Assembly (NCBI GenBank): GCA_045642665.1
Contig: JAZUJH010000137.1
Coordinates: forward strand, 2,242-66,241
Reading direction: 5' to 3'
Length of the DNA stretch: 64,000 nt
Source: Treponema sp.
GTDB lineage: Bacteria > Spirochaetota > Spirochaetia > Treponematales > Treponemataceae
Shown here: piece after piece, positions 14,173 through 60,161 of the stretch
How positions within the stretch are numbered: position 1 is the stretch's first letter
Layout: the number at the start of each line of letters is the position of its first letter
Program-made: the position numbers and the translations under genes
Notes under the pieces: generated by a model
Database searches by the model: none
Told to the model about the DNA's origin: nothing
Seen by the model: the letters and a program-made list of their open reading frames with translations, nothing else

Positions 14173-14880
14173 TCAAGAATTATACCAGTGAGATGCAGTT
14201 TCGTCCGCAAACTGTACGAGCATTACAAGCGGATTTTTAAGGAAGTTTGAATAGTTGTATGACTCGTATTCGCTTAAATCAAAGACTCCCATGTGACGGC
14301 TGATTGCTTCAAGAACTGTGCGGTTCTTTATGAGTGAAGGCATGAGTTCCAGAACTCTGAGCACTGATTCATTTCCGTGTCCGAGTACGCGGGAATCCTG
14401 ACGTGATTTGTAGATAGGAATTTTCTTCCAGTTACCGAATATGTCCTTGTTATTTTTGTATTCAATCTTGTAGGAATTGACTTTGCAGAAGTCGTGGCAT
14501 ATTGTGCTTATGAAAATATCTCCTGCAGTAAGTCTGTAATCTGCATTAAGTTTGCTTGCCGTAAAGTTTTCAATGTATGCTTCACACATTGAAAGTGCCT
14601 GCAGCAGTACCCTGAAGCTGTGAACTGCAAGTCCGTGCTCAAAGTCTCCATGAAATTTTGTTGAGGCAGGGCTTGTATAGAAGTCCGAGTTTTCCATCCA
14701 GTTAAGGAGATTTTCTTTTTCTTCCTTGTTCTCAATAACTGCATCGGCCATTTTCTGTATGCAGATTTTTATTCCGTCAAAATTAAAACTGGCGTCCTCG
14801 TTGAAGCATTTGCATTCCTTTGAAATCTCCAGCATCATGCGGCAGTCCGCGTAAAGTTTGTTTTTTTCTTCTTCAGTCAT
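14173..14880 (-). CDS. HD-domain phosphohydrolase
   Basis: FHGDFEHGLAVHS...ICHDFCK...GHG...RHMG...FADE metal-binding pattern. Confidence 0.75.
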   Translation of the reverse strand: MTEEEKNKLYADCRMMLEISKECKCFNEDASFNFDGIKICIQKMADAVIENKEEKENLLNWMENSDFYTSPASTKFHGDFEHGLAVHSFRVLLQALSMCEAYIENFTASKLNADYRLTAGDIFISTICHDFCKVNSYKIEYKNNKDIFGNWKKIPIYKSRQDSRVLGHGNESVLRVLELMPSLIKNRTVLEAISRHMGVFDLSEYESYNYSNFLKNPLVMLVQFADETASHWYNS

Positions 14881-18217: not shown

Positions 18218-18253
18218 GGGGACCTCTAAAAAATACATTTTTTAGAGATGCCC
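18218..18253. repeat. Short family-A palindrome (GGGGACCTCTAAAAAA...TTTTTTAGAGATGCCC)
   Basis: Same termini as families B and C. Confidence 0.75.
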
Positions 18254-18659: not shown

Positions 18660-19511
18660 ATGGATAAAAAAAAGAAAAGTCTGCTTGACCGAATCTTAAA
18701 AATGGATAGCGTAGTATTTAAGGTAATTCCAATTTTTGGTGTTATTTTTTTGAGTATGATTCTGGTTTATTCATTTTTTTTTAACCCTTTTTTTGATGAG
18801 GGCGTAAACTATCCTGTTATATTGTTTTTTCTTAGAATAATTGCGCTGGGATTTTGTATTTTTCTTATTTTCAGGCCTTTCTGTTTTTATGCATATTCGA
18901 TTGTGGGATTCATTTTTTCTGTTTTCTGGACAGTTGATTCTTCTAACATGCTGCTGAGTTTTCTTTATATTCTTCTGTTCATGACAACAGCATCCATATC
19001 AGGTTTTTTTTACAGGAAGAGAAATTTGAAGGTCATAATTATAGCGGTAATCTATATTCTGCTTCCTCTGGCACAGCTGCGGTTAGGCAAGGAAGCTTTC
19101 TTTGATTATATTGTGACTTGCCTTTTTGCAATTCCTGTTATTTTTCTTAGTTTCATTTTCATTTTTTCTTCATTCCATACTTATTACGACAAAATCAGAG
19201 CTTTTCCTCTTGAGCTGAATCTGTATTCTGATCTGACTAAGGAAGATATAATTATTGTATGCAGGATTCTTCAGAATGAAAAATACACATCGATTTCATC
19301 TTCACTTAAGCGTAGCGAAGTTACAATTAAAAAACGTGCGGCAAAAATTTTCAGATGCTTCAGTTCCGTTGACAAATATGATTTTGTGGCAAACTTTTCG
19401 AATCATCCCGTAATGTATAACGGTAAACTTCTTATGGATGCCGACAGAAATGAGACATCATATTTTGCAGAAGTTTGCAAAGATGTTCAGGGGACGATTG
19501 CGAAAAGCTGA
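18660..19511 (+). CDS. Multi-pass membrane protein with a C-terminal LuxR-type HTH
   Basis: About 5 TM segments, then LTKEDIIIV...YTSISSSLKRSEVTIKKRAAKIF. Confidence 0.6.
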   Translation: MDKKKKSLLDRILKMDSVVFKVIPIFGVIFLSMILVYSFFFNPFFDEGVNYPVILFFLRIIALGFCIFLIFRPFCFYAYSIVGFIFSVFWTVDSSNMLLSFLYILLFMTTASISGFFYRKRNLKVIIIAVIYILLPLAQLRLGKEAFFDYIVTCLFAIPVIFLSFIFIFSSFHTYYDKIRAFPLELNLYSDLTKEDIIIVCRILQNEKYTSISSSLKRSEVTIKKRAAKIFRCFSSVDKYDFVANFSNHPVMYNGKLLMDADRNETSYFAEVCKDVQGTIAKS

Positions 19512-19719
19512 AGCTGATTTTGTTTCGGCATCAAAATTCTGTCAGTTTTTTCTCTTGCGTAATACCGTATCAGGTTCATATATTTTTTTATTTCTGATCC
19601 TCAAATTTCGGAACACTGAAGGCAGAATTTTTTTGTGTGAACCGATAAGAATTGCAATTTTTAGGGATGCCCCTGACCTTGATATTTTTCTGCCTGTCAG
19701 TCTTATATGGTAATACTGT

Positions 19720-23069: not shown

Positions 23070-23334
23070 TCATCCTCCAAAACTCTGCTCCCCGAAACTT
23101 TGTAACCAGAGCAGCAGTTCCCATTTATTTGTTCCCTGAAGTTAATTCATGTGCCTCTAAAAATTTATGTTTTTAAAGGTTTATCTATGGCATATTAGTA
23201 TGCAAGTATGTATTATAAATCCGTTTTTAAAAAAAAGGAACATTGAATTTTTAGTTTTTTTATTTTTTTTTAAGAGGATTTTTTATCGGATTTTTTTAAG
23301 GAAATTTTAAAGTTTGTAATTATTTTTTTTAAAT

Positions 23335-23412
23335 TTTTTAGAAATGAATACGAGTTCTGGGCCTTGAAATTACAAGGCCTAAAGACATTGCGTTTTCACG
23401 GTAGCCGCTAAA
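23335..23412 (+). repeat. Family-B element, partial copy
   Basis: TTTTAGAAATG..CGAGTTCTGGGCCTTGAAATTACAAGGCCTAAAGACATTGCG matches the other B copies; abuts the DUF1848 stop. Confidence 0.75.
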
Positions 23413-24346
23413 ATAATTCAAGCTGAAAGTTCTTTTCCCTTAGAAAGGATTTCTGTTTTGCAGGAACTATTTTGTCTGTGGGAAGAGGTTTCCCGAATAG
23501 CATAGGAGAGTGCGGGTCGTGCACCTTATAGTTTTTCAGGGCAAGCTCTGTGTTGTCCGTTGCGTAACAGTATCTGCAGCCTGCAGGGCATGAACTGTAG
23601 GCACCCATGTCGCTGTATTTTATGCAGTGACAGCCTTTTCTTGTTCCTCTGTGAGTCAGGTCCTTGAATTCAATGTTAAAAATTTTTCCGATCTCACTGA
23701 GATTAACGCATCCGCTTTTTTTGATTCCAAATCTTGTGAAATCCTGATAAGTTTCGCATGTCTGAAGTTCGATTGAATATTTTTTTGCAATACGGCCGAG
23801 TCCTTCCGCAAGTTCTTCCATTTCTTCGGCTGTAAGAATCTGTATATCCTTCATATTGAATTTTACTTTCCCGTACATTTCCACGAAGCTGAAAATACAT
23901 TTGGCGACATGTCCCTGCAGTCTTGCCGCCATGTGCTCAAAGGTAATGAGGTGCTGTTTTATTGTATATTTCTTTGTAAGGAGCACAGGGTCGTAGCGCC
24001 AGAAAATTTTATCTTTTCCCACAAGCTTTTCAAGTTTTAAAAGAGTGTCAATGCTCTGGTCTGCGGAAGGGACATCACTTTCCATATCCTTTCCGTATGC
24101 AGTTATAGTGTAGAAGAAGATTGCGTTGAATTTTTCCGTTATTTTTTTTACATGCTCCAGCAGAGGTTCATAATTTTTGGAGCAGAAACACAGGCAGTCC
24201 ACTTTTGAGGGAGAAAGCTCGTAGCGGCTTATCTGTTCCGGGTTATACGGATTTCTTACAAGTACGTAACCTTCCTTCAGTCGTTCCATTAGCCATGGTG
24301 TGTAGTAGTGAACAATGTCCGTTCTTCCGCTGATATTCAGAATCAT
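23408..24346 (-). CDS. DUF1848 domain protein (radical-SAM/SPL-like)
   Basis: ILNISGRTDI, VRNPYN, FCSKN, WRYDP, DMGAYSSCPAGCRYCYA. Start ATG 24346 after GAGG. Confidence 0.88.
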   Translation of the reverse strand: MILNISGRTDIVHYYTPWLMERLKEGYVLVRNPYNPEQISRYELSPSKVDCLCFCSKNYEPLLEHVKKITEKFNAIFFYTITAYGKDMESDVPSADQSIDTLLKLEKLVGKDKIFWRYDPVLLTKKYTIKQHLITFEHMAARLQGHVAKCIFSFVEMYGKVKFNMKDIQILTAEEMEELAEGLGRIAKKYSIELQTCETYQDFTRFGIKKSGCVNLSEIGKIFNIEFKDLTHRGTRKGCHCIKYSDMGAYSSCPAGCRYCYATDNTELALKNYKVHDPHSPMLFGKPLPTDKIVPAKQKSFLREKNFQLELF

Positions 24347-25678: not shown

Positions 25679-26845
25679 TTAATAGTCCAATGCAATTGAA
25701 AGCTTTGTTCCTAAGGTACAGTTTATATCAGTACCGTAGTTTACAGTAATACCGGTGTTAAGATTTGCATGAGGGAATGTGTTCTTTAATACAAATCCTG
25801 GGGTTATATAACCTTTCTTGTTTGTAAGATCGTGATAACCTGCAAGGACAAGAGCTATTTTGTTATTGAATAGTCCGTTCCATCCCCATTGTTCACCTAT
25901 TTCGCAAGTATTCTTGTTTTCTGTAAAATCATAGCCGTGACGGTATTCAATATTGATTCCCATGTTAGGTGCTGACCATTTTCTGTAGAATCCTGCTATA
26001 ACATTCAGTTTGTCAAAGCTCTGAAGATTCATGCCTTTTTCAATCTTAAAATCAATGTCACCGTGCATGTAGGCATCAAAACCGAATATGGTGCGCTTGA
26101 GTTCAAGACCGGCGATTGTAGAAAAATCAGTTGCTTCCGGGTGATACTGGTGTGCGCTTAAACTTATAAGTGTATCGAATACAACAAAATCAAAGAGGCC
26201 GGCATAGGATACATCCTTCAGATTTACGTTTGTGTTTATGTTTGTGTCAATGAACCCTGATGCGCTGGAAGGAATGGTTCCTTTCATGAGACCTGCGAAA
26301 GTTAGATTTGTGGATCCGAAGGGAATGCTTACGGTTCCTGTTATTGTATTGCCTTGAGTGTTTCCGAGAACCGTATTTGAGTCAAAAAGTCTGCAGTTTC
26401 CCCAGCTTATATTTTTTTTCCCCACGCTTATAAACATTCTGTCCCACAGATTATAGTCCATGTACATCTGGTAAAGTTCCAGTGATGGGCTTGTGTTCGT
26501 GAGACTTGTATAAATGTCTGCAAATATTTTTATGGGAGATACAGGCCGGGAGGAAACATAAAAGTGGTTCGCTAAATTTAGGTATCCTGTATGGCTTATT
26601 CCTGCGGAACTTACGATTAATCCATAGCCTATGTCTGTATCAAGATGTCCGCTGAAGGTTATTGGGTATGTTGATACAACGTCAGTCACTTCCTGCTCTG
26701 TTTCATCAGTAGTTTCCAGGTCAGTGGCGTCATCAAAAAGAAAATCAAAGTCTTCTGACGACGCATCCTCAATAGATTCCTCCGCTGTCAGAGCAGTCAC
26801 TGTAAAAGTGAGAAGTACAAGGCTCAGGGCTATGATTTTTTTCAT
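25679..26845 (-). CDS. Putative outer-membrane beta-barrel protein with an acidic N-terminal linker
   Basis: Signal peptide, acidic stretch, alternating aromatic/hydrophobic strands, terminal aromatic (LSIALDY). Confidence 0.6.
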   Translation of the reverse strand: MKKIIALSLVLLTFTVTALTAEESIEDASSEDFDFLFDDATDLETTDETEQEVTDVVSTYPITFSGHLDTDIGYGLIVSSAGISHTGYLNLANHFYVSSRPVSPIKIFADIYTSLTNTSPSLELYQMYMDYNLWDRMFISVGKKNISWGNCRLFDSNTVLGNTQGNTITGTVSIPFGSTNLTFAGLMKGTIPSSASGFIDTNINTNVNLKDVSYAGLFDFVVFDTLISLSAHQYHPEATDFSTIAGLELKRTIFGFDAYMHGDIDFKIEKGMNLQSFDKLNVIAGFYRKWSAPNMGINIEYRHGYDFTENKNTCEIGEQWGWNGLFNNKIALVLAGYHDLTNKKGYITPGFVLKNTFPHANLNTGITVNYGTDINCTLGTKLSIALDY

Positions 26846-30469: not shown

Positions 30470-31366
30470 TTATTTCCTGCTCCATGCTTCCTGTATTATT
30501 TTACTGGCCTTCGGATCTTTTTTTATATTTTCTATAGCATTTCTAAGGAATGCAATGAAGATTGCAAAAAAGAATCCTGCCAGGGTTATGATAATAATTT
30601 TTTTCAGGCTTGATTTTTTTGCTGGTCTTTCAACCAGTTCAAAAGGATCTTCGTCAAGTGTAATGAACTGTGCGCAGGAATCCTTGATGCCGTTCAGTTC
30701 GGACTGTGTTTGCAGGAGGCCTGATAAGTCTGATTTGTTGTCCGGGTCAGAGATTTTCTGCTTTGAAATAAGATCGCTGATGCCTGCCAGGATAGGATTT
30801 ATTGTTTCATTCACTTGGGAATTTGTCATTTCAATGCAGGAGCTGATATATTCAGCTATGAATTTTCTGTAGTCATCCATCCGGTTTTCAGGAAGCTTTG
30901 CAACTATGTAGAAATTCAAAGGATTATCAGAGATAATATAAAAATTTTTCTGGTCTGCAGGGATTTCTTTTTTAAAGAAATTATTAATTATTTCGTTGTT
31001 CCTAAGGTCCGAAGAGCTTTTGTCAGTGAAGATATTGTATTTTTTTTCAATTCTTGCGAAATTGAATTTGTCGTTCAAATTGTTCAGGGTCATTCGAGAA
31101 ACGCTGCTGCCTATGAAGTCTGAAAGCTTTTGAGGAGTCTGTGTTATTTTCAGGGAATATGTTACTGAAAGTGTATCTACTGCCGGCATACTGTTTTTTG
31201 GTGGCCTGCTGCTGATAAAAAAATACGTACAGCTGGAAACAAGGAAAATGAGTACAGTGATTAAGATGGATTTTCTGTATCGTATGAGCACTGCAAGTAA
31301 ATCGATAAGTGAAATTTCATTTTCATTGCCGGCATTAAGTGTTACATTAGATTCAATTTCATTCAT
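30470..31366 (-). CDS. Wzz-like polysaccharide co-polymerase (chain-length determinant)
   Basis: EISLIDLLAVLIRYRKSIL N-terminal motif; two TMs flanking a periplasmic region. Confidence 0.7.
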   Translation of the reverse strand: MNEIESNVTLNAGNENEISLIDLLAVLIRYRKSILITVLIFLVSSCTYFFISSRPPKNSMPAVDTLSVTYSLKITQTPQKLSDFIGSSVSRMTLNNLNDKFNFARIEKKYNIFTDKSSSDLRNNEIINNFFKKEIPADQKNFYIISDNPLNFYIVAKLPENRMDDYRKFIAEYISSCIEMTNSQVNETINPILAGISDLISKQKISDPDNKSDLSGLLQTQSELNGIKDSCAQFITLDEDPFELVERPAKKSSLKKIIIITLAGFFFAIFIAFLRNAIENIKKDPKASKIIQEAWSRK

Positions 31367-32644: not shown

Positions 32645-32663
32645 TAAAGACTACGAAAACATA

Positions 32664-32782
32664 AGGGCATCTTAAAAAGACTTTTCAGAGATGCCTGTAA
32701 GTTTTAATCCTTGAAATTACAAGTCTTGAGGCATTATGTTTTCAAAGTTGTCTCTAAGATTTGGAATTTTTAGGGATTCCCA
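32664..32782 (+). repeat. Family-B element, full copy
   Basis: AGGGCATCTT...AGAGATGCC-TGTAAGTTTTAATCCTTGAAATTACAAG...AATTTTTAGGGATTCCC. Confidence 0.85.
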
Positions 32783-32798
32783 TAAAAAGTTTGGTATA

Positions 32799-36871: not shown

Positions 36872-36942
36872 CTGAATATTTTTTTATTTTAATTTTTATA
36901 TTAGGTAAGCTCTAGAATTTGCATTTTTTAGAGATGACTATA

Positions 36943-37063
36943 GGGAACCTCTAAAAACTTCAGTTTTTTAGAGGCAACATTAGAAATGTGATGTTTAAAA
37001 CCGAGCCGATTCAGCGGTTTTAAACTCGACGGTGCACCTCGATTAGGGTTTATAGAGGTGTCC
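36943..37063 (+). mobile_element. Family-C MITE-like element, copy 1 (121 bp), TA on both sides
   Basis: Termini GGGAACCTCT...AGAGGTGTCC; 12 mismatches against copy 2 by manual alignment; preceded by a family-A hairpin (36903-36938). Confidence 0.8.
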
Positions 37064-42440: not shown

Positions 42441-42496
42441 GGGTATCTCTGAAAAAATATTTTTCAGAGATGCCTGCGAGTTTTACTCCTTGAAAT
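42441..42496 (+). repeat. Family-B element, 5' half
   Basis: GGGTATCTCTGAAAAA...TTTTTCAGAGATGCCTGCGAGTTTTACTCCTTGAAAT. Confidence 0.8.
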
Positions 42497-44346: not shown

Positions 44347-44378
44347 TTGTATAAATCCTGTTAGTTGTCTAACTGATT

Positions 44379-44493
44379 AGGGCATCTCTAAAAAAATCAG
44401 AGATGCCTGCGAGTTTTAATCCTTGAAATTACACGGCCTAAAACATCGCGTCTTAAAAGTTGCTACTAAAAATTGTAATTTTTAGAGGTTACC
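44379..44493 (+). repeat. Family-B element, full copy, between the two ABC subunit genes
   Basis: AGGGCATCTCT...AGAGATGCCTGCGAGTTTTAATCCTTGAAATTACA...CTAAAAATTGTAATTTTTAGAGG. Confidence 0.88.
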
Positions 44494-44494
44494 A

Positions 44495-46249
44495 TTATTC
44501 ATTTACTGCTGCTGGAAAGCTTCTGTACTGGTTCACCTCGGAAGGAAGTTCCCCGTACTGTGCCATCCATGTCTGGTAGTAAAGACCTTTCTGTTCAAGA
44601 AGTGATTCATGAGTTCCGCGTTCGGCAATTCTTCCTTTGTCAAGAATTATTATTTCGTCTGCAAAACGTACTGAACTGATTCTGTGGGCGATAATAATTT
44701 TGCTGGAATCAGTTACGCTTCTTATTGTCTTCTGAAGCTTCTGTTCAGTTTCCATGTCCAGTGCTGATGTTGAATCATCAAGAATGAGAACAGGAGTTCT
44801 TTTTGCTAATGCGCGTGCAATTGTGAGCCGCTGTTTCTGTCCTCCGCTAAGTCCTACTCCGCGTTCACCGATTACAGTCTTCTCTTTTTCAGGAAGAGAC
44901 TGCACGAATGCTGATTCAGATTTTTCGATTGCAGTTTTCACTTTGTCCGGATCAAGACAATCCCGTTTACCGAATGCAACGTTCTGTGCAATTGTATCAC
45001 TGAAGAGAAAAACATCCTGTGTAACAGGTGCAATGTTCTTTCTCAGCTGATGAACATCAAGTTCCTTAATGTCAACTCCATCGAAGGTAATTGTTCCGCC
45101 TGTGGTATCGTACATTCTTGTCATAAGATTTACGATGGAAGTTTTGCCGCTTCCTGTTGCTCCCATAATACCGAGAGTTTTTCCCTGCGGAAGATTGAAG
45201 CTTATTCCCTTAAGAATTTCTTTTCCGCTGCGACTGAAATCAACCTTGTCAAAAACAATGTTGCCCTTTGCGTTATCAAGTTCAACTGCATCATTTGCAT
45301 TTGTGATTTCAGGAATCTCGTTGTAAAGATTTTTGATTCTCTTCCATGATGCAACTCCGAACGAAACACCGTTCATAAGCCAGCCTAGCATTTCCATAGG
45401 CCATACCATGTTCATTGAATACATGATGAAGGCACTCAGTTCTCCTACAGAAAATTCTCCGCGTATAACGTAAACTCCTCCGTGAATAAGAACAATTACA
45501 GGTACGACCATAGATATTACCTGGATAATCGGATAATACTTTACAAAAACTTTTGACTGGGAAACGTTCAGTTCGTAGAACTTCCTGTTGTGCATAAAAA
45601 ACTTGCTCTTCTCAAAACTTTCACGGGAAAAGGCTTTTACTGTTCTGACTCCCGAGAGATTTTCTGATGCAGTATCATTCAGCACTGAATCTTCCTGGTC
45701 AATTTCATCATAAATCTTGCCAAGATTTTTTTCCATGAGAACTGCAACAAGTCCTGCAACAACCATAAGAACTGTAGGAGCAATTGAAAGTTTCCAGTTC
45801 ATCTTGAACATGCAGTAAAGAACTGCAACTGTGTGGAAGGCAACTTCAATAAGGCACTGGGAAATAAAAGACACGGCCCAGCGAACCTTGTCAACGTCGC
45901 TCTTAATTTTTGACATAATTTCGCCAGCATTGTTCTTGTCGAAGAATGATGCTGAAAGAGTCTGGACGTGTGCAAATAGATCTTTCTGCAGCGGTTCAGC
46001 AATTTTAATTCCGTTAATGTCAAATGTGATTTGCTCAGTGTATACCATGACAACTCTTGCAAGCCCAACACCGAGCATACATAAAAGTATTCTTGCAAGA
46101 AATTCAATTTTTCCTCCAACAATAACGTCATCAACAAGACGCTGTGTAAGAACCGGAGAAACCATGTCGAATAATACGTTCAAAATTGTACATAAAAGTC
46201 CTGCAATGTACAGCCACGTATAACGTTTTACGTAATTAAACAGTTTCAT
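44495..46249 (-). CDS. Multidrug-type ABC half-transporter (TMD+NBD), subunit 1
   Basis: GATGSGKT, LSGGQKQR, LDDSTSALD (degenerate Walker B typical of heterodimers), AHRISS. Confidence 0.92.
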   Translation of the reverse strand: MKLFNYVKRYTWLYIAGLLCTILNVLFDMVSPVLTQRLVDDVIVGGKIEFLARILLCMLGVGLARVVMVYTEQITFDINGIKIAEPLQKDLFAHVQTLSASFFDKNNAGEIMSKIKSDVDKVRWAVSFISQCLIEVAFHTVAVLYCMFKMNWKLSIAPTVLMVVAGLVAVLMEKNLGKIYDEIDQEDSVLNDTASENLSGVRTVKAFSRESFEKSKFFMHNRKFYELNVSQSKVFVKYYPIIQVISMVVPVIVLIHGGVYVIRGEFSVGELSAFIMYSMNMVWPMEMLGWLMNGVSFGVASWKRIKNLYNEIPEITNANDAVELDNAKGNIVFDKVDFSRSGKEILKGISFNLPQGKTLGIMGATGSGKTSIVNLMTRMYDTTGGTITFDGVDIKELDVHQLRKNIAPVTQDVFLFSDTIAQNVAFGKRDCLDPDKVKTAIEKSESAFVQSLPEKEKTVIGERGVGLSGGQKQRLTIARALAKRTPVLILDDSTSALDMETEQKLQKTIRSVTDSSKIIIAHRISSVRFADEIIILDKGRIAERGTHESLLEQKGLYYQTWMAQYGELPSEVNQYRSFPAAVNE

Positions 46250-48795: not shown

Positions 48796-49242
48796 ATGAG
48801 TGAAGATAAATTTGACTGTCTTAAACTTCGTAACCAGTTGTGTTTTTCCCTTTATGCCTGCTCGAAGGAAATCATTAAGCGTTATAAGCCTATGCTCGAT
48901 GAGCTGGACCTGACTTATACCCAGTATCTTACAATGATGGTGCTCTGGGAAAGGAAGCAGATGAATGTAAAGGAACTTGGAAATTATTTGTATCTCGACA
49001 GCGGAACTTTGACTCCCGTACTGAAAAAACTTGAGGGAAAGAATTATATTACCCGCGCAAGAATGAAGGAAGATGAAAGAAATGTTCTTATCTCCATTAC
49101 TGAGGAAGGTGAATCCCTGAAAGAAAAAGCTGTAAGCATTCCTGCAAGAATGTGTTCCTGTGTTAATCTTGACAGAGAAGACGGACAGAATCTTCATGGT
49201 CTTCTGCAAAAAGTTCTTGAAGGCTTCAGGGAAGATAACTGA
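48796..49242 (+). CDS. ohrR: MarR-family organic-peroxide sensor, OhrR-like
   Basis: QLCFSLY with the conserved sensing Cys, LTYTQYL, YLDSGTLTPVLKKLE, DERNV. Confidence 0.8.
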   Translation: MSEDKFDCLKLRNQLCFSLYACSKEIIKRYKPMLDELDLTYTQYLTMMVLWERKQMNVKELGNYLYLDSGTLTPVLKKLEGKNYITRARMKEDERNVLISITEEGESLKEKAVSIPARMCSCVNLDREDGQNLHGLLQKVLEGFREDN

Positions 49243-50075
49243 TGGATCTTGTGAATGCTCCAAAACCTTTTCTCTTCAGGCTTGACGAGCTTATGGTCCG
49301 CCAGAAATATAGCACTTATCGTTCAGTGAGAAGGCTTCTGATCAGAAGCACTGTGTGTGTAAACGGCAGACAGGTTATTGAGGCGGGAACAATGATTGAT
49401 CCCCGCTATGATGTTGTGACTGTTGACGGCGAGGTGTTTCCTCTTAAGGGTGACATTTATCTGATGATGAACAAAAAGCAGGACACTGTATGCACAAGTG
49501 ATGAAGGGCAGCATGAAAGGGTTTTCCGGTCTGTTGCGCCTGAATATATTAATCCTGAATTCCTGGGAAAGCTTCATACGGTTGGAAGGCTTGACCTTGA
49601 TACGGAAGGTCTTCTGATTCTTACAACCAACGGCAAACTTTCTCACTGGCTTACGGATCCTATGTTTCATCATACGAAGAAATATTTTGTATGTCTGAGG
49701 GATGAACTTAATGCCGAAGAGAAACTTGAATATGAGCGGAAAATAGCTGAAGGTTTTTATATTGAGCCCGAAAAGAAGGCCCCTGCCTTTACCTGCAAGC
49801 CTGCAGAGATTCAGTGGATAGATGATGCGGAGAATAATCCTTACTGTAACCTGAGAACTTCATCTGATGAAATGGACTACAGGTTTACTGCATGCGTTCT
49901 TACCCTGACTGAAGGCAAGTTTCATCAGGTCAAGAGAATGTTCAGCACTTTGGGCAATCATGTAATTTTTCTGAAGCGCATTTCAATGGGGCGTCTGTAC
50001 CTTGATACATCTCTCAGGACCGGAGAATACAGGCATCTTACAGAAGAAGAGCTTGAACTCCTTCTGACTGTGTGA
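49242..50075 (+). CDS. RsuA-family rRNA pseudouridine synthase
   Basis: S4-like N-terminus, VGRLDLDTEGLLILT, TEGKFHQVKRMF; TGATG overlap with ohrR. Confidence 0.9.
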   Translation: MDLVNAPKPFLFRLDELMVRQKYSTYRSVRRLLIRSTVCVNGRQVIEAGTMIDPRYDVVTVDGEVFPLKGDIYLMMNKKQDTVCTSDEGQHERVFRSVAPEYINPEFLGKLHTVGRLDLDTEGLLILTTNGKLSHWLTDPMFHHTKKYFVCLRDELNAEEKLEYERKIAEGFYIEPEKKAPAFTCKPAEIQWIDDAENNPYCNLRTSSDEMDYRFTACVLTLTEGKFHQVKRMFSTLGNHVIFLKRISMGRLYLDTSLRTGEYRHLTEEELELLLTV

Positions 50076-50111
50076 AGGCGTTTCCTGAAGACTTTATGCA
50101 AAATGTCCCTC

Positions 50112-50149
50112 CGAGTTTAAAACTGACATCCTGTACGGTTTTAAACATC
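50112..50149 (-). repeat. Reversed, degenerate relic of the family-C central hairpin
   Basis: CGAGTTTAAAACTG...CGGTTTTAAACATC matches the reverse complement of the C middle segment. Confidence 0.6.
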
Positions 50150-50170
50150 GGCTTTCTGGGATTCCCTGAA

Positions 50171-51178
50171 TTATTTGCTAATCAATGATGCAGCAGGGAT
50201 TTTGCAGGTATAAGTCAGCGGAAGGTTTACTGCGTTTGAAAGTTCCGGGAAGCTTAATGAGCTTGAAAGATTGAAGTCAGGGTTCGTTATGCTTTTGTTT
50301 ATGAACTGTTCAATAAGGTCCACCGAGTTCATGGTATTCAGCTTTGCTGTCATAGGAACAGAGCCTTCTGAAGAGGATATTGTGTTTGTTCCGCTCGGGG
50401 TTATGGAAGCAACAGTTCCGTTTGCTGATGTCATGTTACAGGTGTTCACTGTAAATTTCCATGGAGCTCCGCCTTCGTTTTTTACGTTCAGGTTGAAGTT
50501 TATTTTTATGTCAAGGTTGACCTTTTTTAACAGCGAAGTATCAATGCCGTTGCCGCTTGTTATGGAACTTAGCATATTTGCAGCGGTTCCTGTATTCATT
50601 CCGCTTTTAAGGAGAACATTCAGAATAGTCTGGGAGTCCGGGAGGGTGACTGACGGGTTTGAAATGCTGAAACTTGGTTTGAAAACAGGCACGTCGAATC
50701 CGACGGAAAAAGGAAGGTTCACGGTACTTGAAACTGCTGAAATAACAGGAACGGAACTTACATCAAGACCTGCGGCTCCTTCAATCTTGAAAGGGATATA
50801 TGCACTGGCAGCAGAATTCTTTGCATAGCCGATTATTGTTTCGTAAGGAACCTTGAATGAGACATTGTTTCTTTCTGTTCCCATGGCCCTTACCCTGGCA
50901 CCTTCATTGGCTGTAATCTTTGTAAAGGTTCCCTGGCTTGTGCTTACATTTGCATTAAGGGATTTTATTGAAAGTTCTGCCGGATAAGGATTTGTAATGC
51001 TGTAGGCGCAGTTGAAGGTTATGCCTTCCATGTCAAGGTTCTTGATGATTACGCTGTTTACAGAAAGAGTAGGTTTTTCAACCCTGAAGTCTGAAGACTG
51101 GCAGGAAACGAAAAGTCCTGCGGCAATGGCAATGGAGGCAGCAGCCTCTAATCTGATTCTTAAAAACAATTTTTTCAT
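50171..51178 (-). CDS. LEA type-2 family lipoprotein (two LEA2 domains)
   Basis: Lipobox LFVS-C; ITNPYP...SFKVPY and a second NEGG...PMT repeat. Confidence 0.65.
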   Translation of the reverse strand: MKKLFLRIRLEAAASIAIAAGLFVSCQSSDFRVEKPTLSVNSVIIKNLDMEGITFNCAYSITNPYPAELSIKSLNANVSTSQGTFTKITANEGARVRAMGTERNNVSFKVPYETIIGYAKNSAASAYIPFKIEGAAGLDVSSVPVISAVSSTVNLPFSVGFDVPVFKPSFSISNPSVTLPDSQTILNVLLKSGMNTGTAANMLSSITSGNGIDTSLLKKVNLDIKINFNLNVKNEGGAPWKFTVNTCNMTSANGTVASITPSGTNTISSSEGSVPMTAKLNTMNSVDLIEQFINKSITNPDFNLSSSLSFPELSNAVNLPLTYTCKIPAASLISK

Positions 51179-51338: not shown

Positions 51339-51579
51339 GGTATCTCTGAAAATACTTTTAAGGATGCCTGCGGGTTCTGATTCCTGAAATTACAAGTCAT
51401 AAGATATTGTGTTCTTGAAGTCGTCCCCAAAAGCTTTAAGGGAACATCTAAAAAATTCAGTTTTTTAGAGGTAGCTTTAGAAATGTGATGCTTAAAACCG
51501 CGCCAATTCAGCAGTTTTAAACTCGACGGTGCACCTCAATTGGGGTTTATAGAGGTGCCCTTAATTTTTTGAGATTCAC
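51339..51579 (+). repeat. Family-B element interrupted by a family-C insertion
   Basis: B 5' part at 51339-51435. Removing C and one TTAA restores an ungapped B 3' end (24/35 identical to the 32664 copy). Confidence 0.75.
51440..51560 (+). mobile_element. Family-C MITE-like element, copy 2 (121 bp), TTAA on both sides
   Basis: GGGAACATCT...AGAGGTGCCC; TTAA at 51436-51439 and 51561-51564. Confidence 0.82.
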
Positions 51580-51612: not shown

Positions 51613-51641
51613 TTGAAAAACCCCTGCATATCTGTTATACT
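51613..51641 (+). promoter_or_regulatory. Promoter TTGAAA-N17-TATACT (extended TG), 7 nt before ATG 51649
   Basis: The TTG start in the ORF track is the -35 box. Confidence 0.65.
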
Positions 51642-51648
51642 TGGAGAT

Positions 51649-52443
51649 ATGAAAATTACACCGGATTATTCACTTATTTATGAAGATGATTCAATACTTG
51701 TATTGAACAAGCGTAGCGGTTTGCTTGTTGCCGCCGACCGTTATGATCCCGTTGCACCACGTCTTGATCTTCTTGCCTCAAAAGAATTCGGAGATCTTTT
51801 TGCCGTACACAGAATTGATAAAGATACCAGCGGTATTGTTATTTATGCAAGAACTGCCGAGGCCCATAAAAATCTTTCTCTCCAGTTCCAGAACCGTGAG
51901 GTGAAGAAGACTTATCACTGTCTTGTAAACGGTCATCCTCTGTGGAATGAACTTCATGTAGACCTTAAGCTTCTGCCTGACGGAGATGCAAAGCACCGTA
52001 CAATTGTAAACTCAAGGTCGGGAAAGGTTTCTGTCACTGACTTCAGGTCCGTAGGAAACTGCGGTCCTTATACATGGATAGAAGCTTGTCCTCATACAGG
52101 CAGGACTCATCAGATTCGTGTTCATCTTAGCGCAAACAATCTGACAATTGTTCGTGACCCTTTGTATTCAGGAAATCAGCATCCAGTTCTTCTTAGCGAC
52201 ATCAAGAAGAAGTGGAACGGAGATACGGAAGAAGAACGACCTCTTCTTGACCGTCTTGCCCTTCATGCATATTCAATTGAAATCACTCATCCTGAAACTG
52301 GTGAACGCGTACGCTATGTCGCCCCTTATCACCGTGACATGGAAGCTGTTCGCAAGCAGATTGCAAAGCTCTTTAAGGTTGATCCTGTTGCTTTCAGTGA
52401 AGCAAAGTATGCTGAGGAAGCTGGAAAAAAGGATTCGGAATAG
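51649..52443 (+). CDS. RluA-family pseudouridine synthase
   Basis: LNKRSGL, VHRIDKDTSG, HTGRTHQIRVH, RLALHAY. Confidence 0.92.
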   Translation: MKITPDYSLIYEDDSILVLNKRSGLLVAADRYDPVAPRLDLLASKEFGDLFAVHRIDKDTSGIVIYARTAEAHKNLSLQFQNREVKKTYHCLVNGHPLWNELHVDLKLLPDGDAKHRTIVNSRSGKVSVTDFRSVGNCGPYTWIEACPHTGRTHQIRVHLSANNLTIVRDPLYSGNQHPVLLSDIKKKWNGDTEEERPLLDRLALHAYSIEITHPETGERVRYVAPYHRDMEAVRKQIAKLFKVDPVAFSEAKYAEEAGKKDSE

Positions 52444-52452
52444 GAGCTGATT

Positions 52453-53448
52453 ATGACTGCACATTTTTCCAAAAAGAAAACTATCTTCACTATGATTTTA
52501 TGTGCAGCCATACCAATTTTTTCATTGGAATTTCCTGCCGCAAGTTTTGAAGTGACGCCTTTTTTTTCTTCAAGGCTCGGCTGGTATGGGGAACATTTGT
52601 ATACGAAAGTTAGGAATGCGGAACATCCAATGACCAGTTATCTTGAATGGCAGCAGAATTCAGTGTTCACTTTCGGTACAAAGGCTGAAGGCAGGATCAG
52701 TAATTTTTATTTGAACGGGGAATGCTCCTTCGGAATTCCTATGCGTACAGGTTTGATTTACGATTATGACTGGTTCATGAATACTAATATCTGCCAAAGC
52801 CTTTCAGTAGGTGAAGAAAATCTTATTAGGAGTTATGATTTTGGCGGAAGTATTTCTTATCTTTTTCCCCTGAAGCATCTTGATTTCATGATTTCAGCTG
52901 GCTGTTCATACGCTTATGTTTATTTCGACAGTCCTGAAAATCAGTATGGAAGAGCGGATCCTCATAGGGGTGATTCTGACGTAATATCTTATGATTCTGA
53001 AGAGGCCGTTATTTTTTCGACTTGCCATCTTTCTTATGAACGTTATACTTTTTATTCCTGGCTGGGAGGAGAATTCAGATACCATCCTTCAGATAAGCTG
53101 TCGTTTAATTTAGCTTTCAGCCTCTCTCCATATTCCTCTACAGAATCTGAAGATCATCATGATTATGATAATGATTATGATGCTGATTCCGGGGAATATT
53201 TTCAGGATGTTTGCAGCGGTTTTTTTTGGGCATATAAGTTTAGTGCCGGCTGCAGATATTATTTTTCAAAATATGCGGGAGCTTATACAGGTGCCCGGAT
53301 AGTTTATATGCCGCCGATTTATGGCAGAACTTATACATCCGGGCATTCCCGTGTGCTTGGCTCGTTAAGTTCCGCGGATTATGTCGGTGCAAGTGAATTT
53401 ACCTGTACATTTTTTGCTGGAATAATTTTCAGAGTCAGTAATTTTTAA
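52453..53448 (+). CDS. Omptin-family outer-membrane protease
   Basis: SYLEW (OmpT SQLDW), GLIYDYDW (D-x-D-W) and SEDHH (D-x-H) match the OmpT catalytic pairs; beta-strand pattern; terminal F. Confidence 0.65.
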   Translation: MTAHFSKKKTIFTMILCAAIPIFSLEFPAASFEVTPFFSSRLGWYGEHLYTKVRNAEHPMTSYLEWQQNSVFTFGTKAEGRISNFYLNGECSFGIPMRTGLIYDYDWFMNTNICQSLSVGEENLIRSYDFGGSISYLFPLKHLDFMISAGCSYAYVYFDSPENQYGRADPHRGDSDVISYDSEEAVIFSTCHLSYERYTFYSWLGGEFRYHPSDKLSFNLAFSLSPYSSTESEDHHDYDNDYDADSGEYFQDVCSGFFWAYKFSAGCRYYFSKYAGAYTGARIVYMPPIYGRTYTSGHSRVLGSLSSADYVGASEFTCTFFAGIIFRVSNF

Positions 53449-53508
53449 CGGAAACCATTTACTTTCATTAGGGCATCCCTGTAAATTCCCTGAAAAGAAT
53501 AAATGATA

Positions 53509-53631
53509 AGGGCATCTATAAAAATTACTTTTTAGAAATGCCGACGAGTTCTGATGCCTGAAATTACAATGCTTAAAGCATCGTATTTTTTTTAGTACCC
53601 TTCAAAAATTGTAATTTCTGGATGTTCCCAT
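53509..53631 (+). repeat. Family-B element, full copy; extra terminal half-site at 53470-53480
   Basis: AGGGCATCTATAAAAA..TTTTTAGAAATGCCGACGAGTTCTGATGCCTGAAATTACA...AAAAATTGTAATTTCTGGATGTTCCC. Confidence 0.82.
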
Positions 53632-53876
53632 AAAATTTAAGAACGAATGAATCATTTGATGAAGATGAACGGTCATCAAAATTGAGTGAACCGGGAGATT
53701 CACTCAAAAAGTTGAATAAAGTAACGGAACGGGAAATCTTCATAGAAACCAGGACTCCGCCGCCGTACATAACCTGCTTTCGGATTTATGACAAATTCTC
53801 CTGACGGCATTACGGTTCGTTGCATCGGAAAAAACGGTCTGCATCTTGGGGATGCCCTTAATATTTTACCGGAATC

Positions 53877-59065: not shown

Positions 59066-60034
59066 TTATTCAAACAGCTCGGAATCTTCTTCTGATAAAT
59101 CTTCAGGATATTCGTCTTCTTTGATTTCCTGAGAAGCTTTGTTGCAAAGTTCCTGCATTATTTTTGCATTGTCCATCATGTCCTGTACATGAGTCTGGGC
59201 AATTGCATCTGATGTATTTTCGTATGCAGTCTGCAGAAGATCAAGCATTCTGTCATAGCGTTGGCTTTCCGTAATTGCATAAACCCAGGCACCCTGGTAT
59301 GCGGCTTCAAACATCTGTGACTTATCAAGATGCCCGTTCTGGACAAGCTTTTCAAAAACAAAGCAGGCTTTATCTTTCTCATCACTTATCAGATAATCCA
59401 TGCACTTTGCATAAGCGTTTATCAGTTCGTATTTTCCCAGAAGTCCGGATGTGTTTTTCTCATCAAGGGCAGGAACTTCTTCGCAGAGACTGTCCAAGGG
59501 ATGCCTGAAATAAATATCCGTTGCTTCATACAGTTCGTCTATTGCAAAAAGTTTCCTGTTTCCGGTAAAAGAATTTGTATTTGCAATCTTATCCTTTATA
59601 GTCTTATTTGCTTCCTCAAATGAAAGAACCTCGGCTTCAAGATTTCCTTCCGACAAATATTTATCTTCGTATTGAATGTAGCGGATAACATAGCCTTCCT
59701 TTGACAGGACAAATATTCCCGGAAGATATTCAATGTAGTAGTCACGCTCAATTTTGCTGCAAACTTCAGGATGATTTTCATCATTTACGTTCGCATCAAG
59801 GAATACATATTTTTTTTGCAGGAGAGAAGCAAAATTTTTGTTCGACTTCAGCTGACCAATAAAATTCTGTGAGGTTTCATCATCGCCTCTTATAATCATC
59901 AGAATATCTTTTTCATTTTTTGTACACTGATTTTTTGCATCCTCAAAAGTGTAAACCCATTTATCCTTTGTGCAGGAAATAAAAGTGAATGCAGAAATTA
60001 AAAGTAATGAAACTGTACAAAAAGTTTTTTTCAT
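59066..60034 (-). CDS. Lipoprotein with a thioredoxin-like domain lacking CxxC, plus a helical C-terminus
   Basis: Lipobox FIS-C; WVYTFEDAK...DILMII, YYIEYLPGIFVLSKEG. Confidence 0.55.
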   Translation of the reverse strand: MKKTFCTVSLLLISAFTFISCTKDKWVYTFEDAKNQCTKNEKDILMIIRGDDETSQNFIGQLKSNKNFASLLQKKYVFLDANVNDENHPEVCSKIERDYYIEYLPGIFVLSKEGYVIRYIQYEDKYLSEGNLEAEVLSFEEANKTIKDKIANTNSFTGNRKLFAIDELYEATDIYFRHPLDSLCEEVPALDEKNTSGLLGKYELINAYAKCMDYLISDEKDKACFVFEKLVQNGHLDKSQMFEAAYQGAWVYAITESQRYDRMLDLLQTAYENTSDAIAQTHVQDMMDNAKIMQELCNKASQEIKEDEYPEDLSEEDSELFE

Positions 60035-60126: not shown

Positions 60127-60161
60127 GGGCATCCCTAAAAATTGTAATTCTCAGGGATGCC
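60127..60161. repeat. Short family-A palindrome after purL
   Basis: GGGCATCCCT-AAAAATTGTAATTCTC-AGGGATGCC; the loop equals the B 3' hairpin core. Confidence 0.78.

What the first reader, a model, noticed from the sequence alone, without database searches (positions are those of the whole stretch)
51339..51579. Nested insertion: a 121-bp MITE (family C) inserted into family B with a TTAA duplication
C (51440-51560) has inverted ends GGGAACATCT/AGAGGTGCCC and TTAA on both sides. Deleting it and one TTAA gives GTCGTCCCCAAAAGCTTTAATTTTTTGAGATTCAC, which aligns without gaps to the intact B end at 32747-32781 (24/35). A second C copy 14.5 kb away differs at only 12 positions. This is internal evidence that C transposes and is younger than B. 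B, C and the short hairpins share related termini, so one unidentified transposase lineage may have produced successive waves. TA/TTAA targets fit IS5-family-like specificity (inference). This is my best candidate for an undescribed system in the window.
Basis: partly seen in the sequence, partly recalled or inferred. Interest (0 to 1): 0.72.

Follow-up and report, generated by a model that had tools for sequence, protein, structure and literature searches.

The report
Nested small transposon in Treponema
A 121-bp non-coding mobile element (a MITE) in a gut Treponema chromosome really has jumped into an older, related copy of itself, duplicating TTAA; this is an ordinary kind of bacterial junk-DNA event, although the family may be the same thing as two unexplained 'RNA motifs' described in Treponema denticola in 2007.

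Summary
C (51440-51560) has TTAA on both sides. A second copy sits at 36943-37063, with 12 of 121 differences. The ends are inverted repeats (12 of 15 matching). Removing C plus one TTAA restores a gap-free family-B right end.

The interpretation needs one correction. C is not a separate family. Its reverse complement aligns end to end with a profile of intact B copies (E about 1e-13). C is therefore a younger subfamily of the same element, inserted in the opposite orientation.

Transposition is supported by identical 4-bp flanks that differ from copy to copy:
- B32: ATAA
- B53: ATAA
- B44: ATTA
- C1: TTAA
- Two elements in another Treponema genome: TTAT and TTAA; the TTAA-flanked one is the host of a second nested insertion.

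These direct duplications argue against hairpin-type (REP/RAYT, IS200/IS605) mobility. They fit a DDE transposase making 4-bp staggered cuts at AT-rich sites.

I found no transposase in the window. No strain showed an empty site, and three samples carry C at this position.

Related elements occur in other Treponema genomes. They give weak, full-length, sub-threshold hits to the Rfam motifs TD-1 and TD-2.

Verdict: a real, ordinary MITE family of modest interest.

The parts
51440..51560 (-). C1: a 121-bp non-coding inverted-repeat element (MITE), the young subfamily. The strand is given relative to the B consensus, because its reverse complement aligns with B end to end. It forms three hairpins: a terminal palindromic unit, a conserved central hairpin (GTTTAAAACCG..CGGTTTTAAAC type), and a terminal hairpin.
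   Evidence: (40.3 bits, E 6.5e-14, profile 2-124 of 125)
51436..51439 (.). Left copy of the TTAA target-site duplication of C1.
51561..51564 (.). Right copy of the TTAA target-site duplication of C1.
51339..51435 (+). Left part of the interrupted old copy B51: a terminal palindromic unit, the conserved core GATGCCTGCGGGTTCTGATTCCTGAAATTACAAG, and the left arm of the 3' unit.
   Evidence: 42.3 bits, profile 2-100
51565..51579 (+). Right end of the interrupted copy B51 (TTTTTTGAGATTCAC), separated from the rest of B51 by C1.
36943..37063 (-). C2: the second copy of the young subfamily, 90% identical to C1. Its flanks are TATA / TAAA (3 of 4 matching). It lies 3 bp from a solo palindromic unit.
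36904..36939 (.). Solo palindromic unit (GGTAAGCTCTAGAATTTGCATTTTTTAGAGATGACT) next to C2. It has no intact duplication.
32665..32781 (+). B32: an intact old copy (117 bp), flanked by ATAA at 32661-32664 and ATAA at 32782-32785.
44380..44493 (+). B44: an intact old copy (114 bp), flanked by ATTA at 44376-44379 and ATTA at 44494-44497. Its fold has three hairpins, and the central one is GCGAGTTTTAA..TAAAACATCGC.
53510..53629 (+). B53: an intact old copy (120 bp), flanked by ATAA at 53506-53509 and ATAA at 53630-53633.
42441..42496 (+). B42: a 3'-truncated old copy.
   Evidence: 27.2 bits, profile 1-55
23335..23414 (+). B23: a degenerate old copy lacking a recognisable 5' unit.
   Evidence: 37.7 bits, profile 20-98
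50100..50166 (+). A degenerate short relative that keeps mainly the central hairpin (GAGTTTAAAACTG..ACGGTTTTAAACATCGG). It lies between convergent genes.
   Evidence: 15.2 bits
18218..18253 (.). Solo palindromic unit GGGGACCTCTAAAAAATACATTTTTTAGAGATGCCC, with no flanking duplication.
19637..19672 (.). Solo palindromic unit, degenerate, with no flanking duplication.
60127..60160 (.). Solo palindromic unit GGGCATCCCTAAAAATTGTAATTCTCAGGGATGC, with no flanking duplication.

Best explanation
B, C and the short hairpins are one family of non-autonomous inverted-repeat transposable elements (MITEs) in a gut Treponema chromosome. A full element is about 115-121 bp and has three parts:
- a palindromic terminal unit with the end GGG(A/C)A(C/T)CTCTAAAAA;
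- a conserved central hairpin (CGAGTTT..AAACATC type);
- a second terminal unit.

Shown: the 51440-51560 copy, a young subfamily member, inserted in inverted orientation into the AT-rich loop of the 3' terminal unit of an older copy (B51) and duplicated the 4-bp target TTAA.

Inferred: a transposase encoded elsewhere in the genome binds the terminal inverted repeats, makes 4-bp staggered cuts at WTWW targets, and moves the element in trans. That is the behaviour of a DDE enzyme, and an IS5-group enzyme is the best guess. The family has been active in at least two waves, B first and then C.

Unexplained: why the central hairpin is conserved across Treponema species while the termini differ.
For: 1. 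Target-site duplications. Identical 4-bp direct repeats differ between copies: B32 ATAA/ATAA, B44 ATTA/ATTA, B53 ATAA/ATAA, C1 TTAA/TTAA. In another Treponema genome a 35-bp unit has TTAT/TTAT and a 44-bp unit has TTAA/TTAA. The chance that two intergenic 4-mers are identical is 0.0088. ATAA, ATTA and TTAT are direct repeats, not inverted, so they are not extensions of the terminal repeats.

2. Reconstitution. Removing C plus one TTAA gives the best, gap-free fit of B51 to the B profile: 66.1 bits against 56.1 as it stands, with 0 of 300 shuffles reaching it.

3. One family. The reverse complement of C aligns with the B profile over positions 2-124 of 125, at E 6.5e-14 for C1 and 1.3e-12 for C2.

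4. Age. C1 and C2 are 90% identical; B copies are 69-76% identical to each other.

5. Multiple dispersed copies. Other C copies with unrelated flanks occur in four gut-metagenome runs. Their flanks are TTAA, TATA, TTAT and ATAT.

6. Relatives with the same architecture occur in three other Treponema MAGs. They have different termini (AAACCTGTTCGGAAAC) and 3-bp direct flanks, ATT in five copies and AAT in one.

7. A second, independent nesting. In L008 one of those elements sits inside a B-type unit that is itself flanked by TTAA/TTAA.

8. Elements lie in intergenic DNA in every orientation relative to genes.
Against: - No autonomous element or transposase was found. None of 53 window ORFs scanned (45 against Pfam, 8 against NCBIfam) shows one, and I could not search the rest of the genome.
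- No empty site was seen. Two other samples (L012, L013) carry C at the same position, a related contig in X2 may be the same locus, and contigs of a near-identical strain contain C2, B42 and B44.
- C2 has imperfect flanks (TATA/TAAA). The one metagenomic copy seen with both flanks has TTAA/TTAT.
- The five solo units in the window have no duplications.
- A central hairpin that stays conserved while the termini diverge is the reverse of what is usual for MITEs. It hints at an additional function that I cannot explain.
Confidence: 0.82

Rival explanations
1. The elements are primarily structured non-coding RNAs, like the TD-1/TD-2 motifs proposed for Treponema denticola. On this view they are multi-copy because each copy acts as a cis-regulator or small RNA, and the apparent insertion is two adjacent RNA genes.
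For: - There are weak but full-length hits to TD-1: L008 at 28.4 bits, E 0.0037; C2 at 21.6 bits, E 0.11; B44 at 16.7 bits, E 1.2. TD-2 hits fall on the opposite strands.
- The single-strand folds are stable, with z-scores from -2.7 to -5.8.
- The central hairpin is conserved across species, and the first hairpin shows compensatory changes between species.
Against: - All hits are far below Rfam's gathering scores (64.5 and 48.7 bits). C1 and B32 give no TD hit at all.
- Both strands fold equally well.
- G:U-type cells (5) equal A:C-type cells (5) in the consensus helices, so there is no sign of one transcribed strand.
- The central hairpin shows no compensatory (both-sides) change among the seven sequences aligned, so it gives no covariation support.
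- Copy-specific 4-bp direct flanks and the gap-free reconstitution of B51 are not expected for RNA genes.
- There is no fixed position relative to genes.
- No promoter-like or terminator-like site lies inside the element.

This reading is not exclusive: a MITE can also be transcribed.
Confidence: 0.08
2. The elements are REP/BIME-like or IS200/IS605-type palindrome-associated elements, moved as single-stranded hairpins by a Y1 (HUH) transposase such as a RAYT or TnpA.
For: - The architecture is modular: palindromic units occur alone or in pairs around a linker.
- The solo units in the window lack duplications.
- All six B copies lie on the + strand.
Against: - These systems make no target-site duplication (established knowledge of the IS200/IS605 and REP/RAYT systems). 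Here six elements have perfect 4-bp direct duplications of varying sequence.
- The elements have true terminal inverted repeats.
- The C copies are in the opposite orientation to B, so the strand count is 6 to 2, which is not a significant bias.
- No Y1 transposase was found among the window ORFs.
Confidence: 0.04
3. The juxtaposition arose without transposition, for example by recombination or slippage between palindromic repeats, and the two TTAAs are coincidental in AT-rich DNA.
For: - The flanks are AT-rich, and TTAA is palindromic and common.
- The right-hand B piece is only 15 bp long.
Against: - Exactly one TTAA has to be removed for the best gap-free alignment.
- Shuffled right-hand pieces never reach the real score.
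- The same 4-bp flank rule holds at five other elements.
- The boundaries of C1 and C2 coincide to the base.
Confidence: 0.04

Closest known systems
Bacterial MITEs in general (for example Correia/NEMIS elements of Neisseria, RUP of pneumococcus, Nezha of cyanobacteria), and the 'cMITEs' counted in Spirochaetes including Treponema (PMC11602168)
   Same: The element is small (about 120 bp), non-coding, intergenic and multi-copy. It has terminal inverted repeats, short target-site duplications and strong hairpin potential, and no transposase of its own.
   Different: The duplication is 4 bp (WTWW), not the TA of Correia and other IS630-derived MITEs (from my own knowledge of those families). Each end is itself a palindromic unit that also occurs alone. 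The central hairpin is more conserved between species than the termini. The parent insertion sequence is unknown.
TD-1 and TD-2 RNA motifs of Treponema denticola (Rfam RF03155, RF03162; Weinberg et al. 2007, PMC1950547)
   Same: - The genus is the same, and both are multi-copy intergenic elements (28 and 36 copies in T. denticola) with modular stems.
- TD-1 and TD-2 overlap as reverse complements, just as B and C are reverse-oriented relatives.
- They share conserved letters CUGCGAGUUU..AAACAUCGCAUU, followed by a long AT-rich hairpin with a UGA-containing loop.
- The alignments to the model are full-length.
   Different: - Scores of 16.7-28.4 bits are far below the gathering thresholds of 64.5 and 48.7 bits, and C1 and B32 do not hit.
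- TD motifs were proposed as functional RNAs, and the paper (as far as I read it) does not discuss mobility.
- I could not examine T. denticola copies for duplications.
IS5-family insertion sequences, IS5 group (the possible autonomous partner)
   Same: A 4-bp duplication at a T/A-centred target and terminal repeats beginning with GG are what I recall for this group. This is recalled knowledge and was not tested here.
   Different: No IS5-like gene with these ends was found. The target here is WTWW rather than the YTAR I recall for IS5. The assignment is an inference only.
REP/BIME elements of enterobacteria, and insertion sequences that target them (for example IS1397)
   Same: Palindromic units occur singly or as composites around a linker. 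Insertions land in or next to the loops of such units: C1 in B51, the L008 element in a unit, and C2 3 bp from a unit.
   Different: REP and BIME elements have no duplications and are thought to depend on RAYT enzymes. Here whole composites carry 4-bp duplications.

Membership tests
MITE (non-autonomous inverted-repeat transposable element) | Short and non-coding | tested here: met
   The elements are 114-121 bp with no ORF.
MITE (non-autonomous inverted-repeat transposable element) | Terminal inverted repeats | tested here: met
   12 of 15 positions match in both C1 and C2. The same GGGNAYCTCTAAAAA ends are present in B copies and solo units.
MITE (non-autonomous inverted-repeat transposable element) | Target-site duplication of fixed length that differs in sequence between copies | tested here: met
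   4-bp duplications: ATAA, ATTA, ATAA and TTAA in the window, and TTAT and TTAA in L008. C2 and one metagenomic copy match at 3 of 4 positions.
MITE (non-autonomous inverted-repeat transposable element) | Multiple dispersed copies | tested here: met
   In 64 kb there are 2 C copies, 6 B copies and at least 5 solo units. Further C copies with other flanks occur in four metagenome runs.
MITE (non-autonomous inverted-repeat transposable element) | Filled versus empty sites (evidence of movement) | tested here: inconclusive
   The internal 'empty site' is reconstituted: B51 minus C minus one TTAA fits the B profile best. No strain lacking C at this site was found: L012 and L013 are filled, and the other metagenome contigs are too fragmented to tell.
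MITE (non-autonomous inverted-repeat transposable element) | An autonomous insertion sequence with the same ends in the same or a related genome | not testable with these tools
   There is no transposase among the 53 window ORFs scanned.
Rfam TD-1 (RF03155) / TD-2 (RF03162) | Covariance-model score at or above the gathering threshold (64.5 / 48.7 bits) | tested here: not met
   There was no hit at gathering thresholds. The best TD-1 scores are 28.4 bits (L008), 21.6 (C2) and 16.7 (B44). TD-2 scores are 17.3 and 15.0 bits. C1 and B32 give no hit.
Rfam TD-1 (RF03155) / TD-2 (RF03162) | Architecture: a CGAGUUU..AAACAUCG hairpin, then a long AT-rich hairpin | tested here: met
   The alignments cover the full model (1-120) and the conserved letters are shared.
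REP/BIME-RAYT or IS200/IS605-derived palindromic elements | No target-site duplication; insertion next to a fixed short target; subterminal hairpins without terminal inverted repeats | tested here: not met
   Direct 4-bp duplications and terminal inverted repeats are both present.
IS630/Tc1-mariner-derived MITEs (Correia-like) | TA dinucleotide duplication | tested here: not met
   The duplicated flanks are 4 bp, and the outer bases also match in six of six elements: ATAA, ATTA, TTAT, TTAA. For the related family with ACCTGTTCGG ends, either a TA or a 3-bp ATT/AAT reading remains possible.
IS5-family-derived MITE | A partner DDE transposase (IS5 group) with matching ends; 4-bp duplication | not testable with these tools
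   The 4-bp duplication is consistent with this group, but no partner element is available for comparison.

The most novel reading that the evidence does not exclude
The Treponema-wide family, including the T. denticola TD-1 and TD-2 'RNA motifs', is a mobile cassette. Its conserved central hairpin would be a functional module, either a protein-binding site or an RNA element, spread by interchangeable palindromic ends. Its transposase would preferentially target the loops of palindromic units of its own family. That would explain the two independent nestings and the abutting copy. If so, two orphan RNA motifs would be reinterpreted, and the family would show hairpin-loop targeting by a DDE-type MITE system.
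Probability: 0.15. Interest if true: 0.55.

Novelty: new member of a known kind. Interest (0 to 1): 0.3.

Why it matters
- It gives a clean, internally documented case of MITE self-nesting in a spirochaete, which fixes the order of two activity waves.
- It defines the duplication length (4 bp, WTWW) that any candidate transposase must reproduce.
- It suggests that the orphan TD-1 and TD-2 motifs of T. denticola, listed since 2007 as candidate structured RNAs, may be decayed or active MITEs. That would caution against reading multi-copy palindromic intergenic motifs as regulatory RNAs.
- For genome annotation of gut Treponema MAGs, these repeats break assemblies: contigs L012 and L013 both end inside C1.

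Tried and rejected
- **Metagenome collection.** A scan with a C-specific 22-mer gave only one unrelated high-GC chance hit.
- **Genome collection.** The scan found relatives in three Treponema MAGs but not the source genome. Two Flavobacteriia hits were chance matches.
- **Empty-site search.**
  - No contigs on record encode exactly the window's own proteins beside C1 (RluA), B32 or B53.
  - The two other members of the RluA cluster come from short contigs that start inside C1, so the site is filled.
  - The next species (RluA 75-77% identical) have a 130-bp intergenic region and a different upstream gene, so they are uninformative.
  - Logan contigs of four runs are too fragmentary and showed no informative joints.
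- **RNA evidence.** No RNA run could be listed. Rfam at gathering thresholds found nothing.
- **Other collections.** There was no match in plasmids or phages or in viral contigs.
- **Literature.** A search for the sequence strings found nothing relevant.
- **TA-only duplication (IS630-like).** Considered and rejected for the B and C ends, because the outer flank bases also match.
- **Strand bias of B and C as evidence for single-strand transposition.** Rejected once C proved to be B-like in reverse orientation, which makes the count 6 to 2.
- **Promoter or terminator role.** No consensus site lies inside the element. The likely RluA promoter lies downstream of it, at 51613-51641.

Full report
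**Setting.** The window is an ordinary chromosomal stretch, about 40% G+C, of an uncultured gut Treponema.
- Its genes include pyrimidine and purine biosynthesis, sugar ABC transporters, two-component regulators and RluA-type pseudouridine synthases.
- The closest database proteins are named Treponema, and the related DNA comes from Treponema MAGs.
- The finding lies in the 470-bp divergent intergenic region between a gene of unknown function (50171-51178, minus strand) and an RluA gene (51649-52443, plus strand).

**Check of the observation.** Every stated feature is present.
- C1 occupies 51440-51560, with TTAA at 51436-51439 and 51561-51564.
- The second copy occupies 36943-37063 and differs at exactly 12 of 121 positions.
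- The termini are inverted repeats that match at 12 of 15 positions.
- Joining 51420-51439 to 51565-51579 gives a 35-mer. It matches the ends of the intact B copies without gaps at 24, 23 and 22 of 35 positions.

I made this quantitative with a profile of the three intact B copies (B32, B44, B53).
- B51 as it stands aligns only up to profile position 102 (56.1 bits).
- After deleting C and exactly one TTAA it aligns to position 119 and scores 66.1 bits. This is the best of all deletion variants; the others score 57.9-62.2 bits.
- None of 300 shuffles of the right-hand piece reached that score.

**What C is.**
- The reverse complement of C1 and of C2 aligns with the B profile over positions 2-124 of 125, at 40.3 and 36.1 bits (E 6.5e-14 and 1.3e-12).
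- The multiple alignment shows homology along the whole length. Identity between B and reversed C is 58-68%. B copies are 69-76% identical to each other, and the two C copies are 90% identical.
- All members have the same plan: a palindromic terminal unit with the outer arm GGG(A/C)A(C/T)CTCTAAAAA, then a central hairpin (CGAGTTTTAA..TTAAAACATCG in B orientation), then a second palindromic unit.
- The units also occur alone, at 18218, 19637, 36904 and 60127 among other places.
- C1 is therefore a young member of the family that inserted, in inverted orientation, into the loop of the 3' unit of an old member.

**Evidence for transposition.** The boundaries are set by the alignment of copies, which begin at GGG and end at CCC.
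- With those boundaries the four bases on either side are identical within each intact element and differ between elements: ATAA/ATAA (B32), ATTA/ATTA (B44), ATAA/ATAA (B53) and TTAA/TTAA (C1).
- In a different species, Treponema MAG CALCEK01 (locus L008), a 35-bp solo unit is flanked by TTAT/TTAT.
- In the same locus a 44-bp unit is flanked by TTAA/TTAA, and a related 122-bp element is nested in its loop.
- Two random intergenic 4-mers of this window are identical with probability 0.0088, so six perfect cases cannot be chance.
- ATAA, ATTA and TTAT are repeated directly rather than as inverted complements. They are therefore duplications and not part of the terminal repeats.
- C2 has TATA/TAAA. 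One metagenomic copy seen with both flanks has TTAA/TTAT. Both are compatible with later point changes.
- Contigs from four gut-metagenome runs show further C copies joined to unrelated flanks, again with TTAA, TATA, TTAT or ATAT next to the element.

**Relatives elsewhere.** A pattern taken from the central hairpin found eight loci in three Treponema MAGs.
- Six complete copies, five from MAG CALCEK01 and one from CAKZZK01, are near-identical (119-141 bp).
- Central hairpin, spacing and loop (CTTCAG) are conserved, but the termini are entirely different (AAACCTGTTCGGAAAC).
- Their direct flanks are ATT in five copies and AAT in one. A TA-only reading of these flanks is also possible.
- A third MAG has yet another pair of terminal stems (L007).
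- So the centre is conserved across species while the ends change. This is unusual for a MITE and I cannot explain it.
- The central hairpin shows no compensatory changes, and the first hairpin shows compensatory differences between the subfamilies.
- G:U-type and A:C-type cells are equally frequent (5 each), and both strands fold equally well. Nothing therefore points to one transcribed strand.

**Link to a catalogued family.** Sensitive Rfam searches of short stretches gave weak but full-length matches to TD-1.
- Scores were 28.4 bits (E 0.0037) for the L008 element, 21.6 bits (E 0.11) for C2 and 16.7 bits (E 1.2) for B44. TD-2 matched the opposite strand each time.
- The shared letters are CUGCGAGUUU..AAACAUCGCAUU, plus an AT-rich second hairpin.
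- TD-1 and TD-2 are T. denticola-specific multi-copy motifs of unknown function. They have modular stems, and their instances partly overlap as reverse complements (PMC1950547).
- The scores are far below the gathering thresholds, and C1 and B32 give no hit. The elements here are therefore not members by Rfam's rule. A distant relationship is likely but not proven.
- A 2024 census already reports high MITE counts in Spirochaetes, including Treponema (PMC11602168).

**What was not found.**
- No transposase or recombinase domain appears in 53 window ORFs scanned, 45 against Pfam and 8 against NCBIfam.
- No strain with an empty site was found. The two other database members of the RluA cluster come from contigs that begin inside C1 at the same position. 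A diverged contig in X2 may be the same B-C junction, on my reading of its flank. Contigs of a near-identical strain contain C2, B42 and B44.
- The insertion is thus present in every sample where this locus could be read.
- No RNA data could be listed.
- There are no copies in the phage, plasmid or viral collections.

**Mechanism.**
- Shown: the inverted-repeat ends, the 4-bp direct duplications at WTWW sites, the multiple dispersed copies, two age classes, and nesting.
- Inferred: mobilisation in trans by a DDE-type transposase that binds the GGG(A/C)A(C/T)CTCTAAAAA ends and makes 4-bp staggered cuts.
- An IS5-group enzyme is the best guess, based on my recollection of duplication length and GG-starting ends. 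This was not tested.
- Hairpin-type single-strand systems (REP/RAYT, IS200/IS605) are disfavoured, because they make no duplications.
- There are two nestings in unit loops, and C2 lies 3 bp from a unit. This hints at a preference for such loops, but the loops are AT-rich WTWW targets in any case, and the numbers are small.

**Verdict.** This is a real feature, accurately observed and largely correctly interpreted. It is an ordinary member of a known kind, a bacterial MITE family, with two modest points of interest: self-nesting that dates two activity waves, and a possible identity with the orphan TD-1 and TD-2 motifs.

Noticed in passing
window 50100-50166: A degenerate short relative keeps mostly the central hairpin (GAGTTTAAAACTG..ACGGTTTTAAACATCGG). 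It sits between the convergent genes 49242-50075 and 50171-51178. It has 14-nt exact matches to both C copies.
   Followed up: partly
window 18218-18253, 19637-19672, 23149-23184, 36904-36939, 60127-60160: These are solo 34-36 bp palindromic units with the family's ends but no flanking duplication. A solo unit in another species (L008 4865-4899) does have TTAT/TTAT. It is unclear whether solo units move on their own.
   Followed up: partly
window 23335, 32665, 42441, 44380, 51339, 53510: All six B copies lie on the + strand, which is also the G-rich strand over most of the window. The two C copies are in the opposite orientation relative to B. Six to two is not significant, but it would be worth a genome-wide count.
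   Followed up: partly
L008 7064-7240 (Treponema MAG CALCEK01): This is a second, independent nested insertion. An element with AAACCTGTTCGG ends and flanking ATT/ATT sits in the loop of a 44-bp B-type unit that is itself flanked by TTAA/TTAA.
   Followed up: yes
L005 (oriented element, 141 bp): One copy of the related family has a 21-bp expansion in the loop of its first hairpin. The other complete copies are 119-120 bp, so that stem-loop varies in length.
   Followed up: no
L009 6733-6772: A solo hairpin unit of the other subfamily (AACCTGTTCTGAAAC..GGGGCAGGTT) shows that both end types occur as solo units.
   Followed up: no
L012 and L013, first base (= window 51535): Two independent Logan contigs from different samples both begin at the same base inside C1. 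The repeat evidently breaks short-read assemblies of this species.
   Followed up: yes
window 42323: A contig of a near-identical strain (run X1) lacks 30 bases here, in the intergenic region upstream of B42.
   Followed up: no
window 49242-50075 and 51649-52443: Two RluA-family pseudouridine synthase genes lie 1.6 kb apart, separated by a gene of unknown function. In the nearest species the gene upstream of the second RluA is an enoyl reductase, so gene order differs exactly at the repeat-bearing intergenic region.
   Followed up: partly
window 9609-11090, 14173-14880, 18660-19511, 25679-26845, 30470-31366, 50171-51178, 52453-53448, 59066-60034: Eight sizeable ORFs have no Pfam match at E <= 1e-6.
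   Followed up: no
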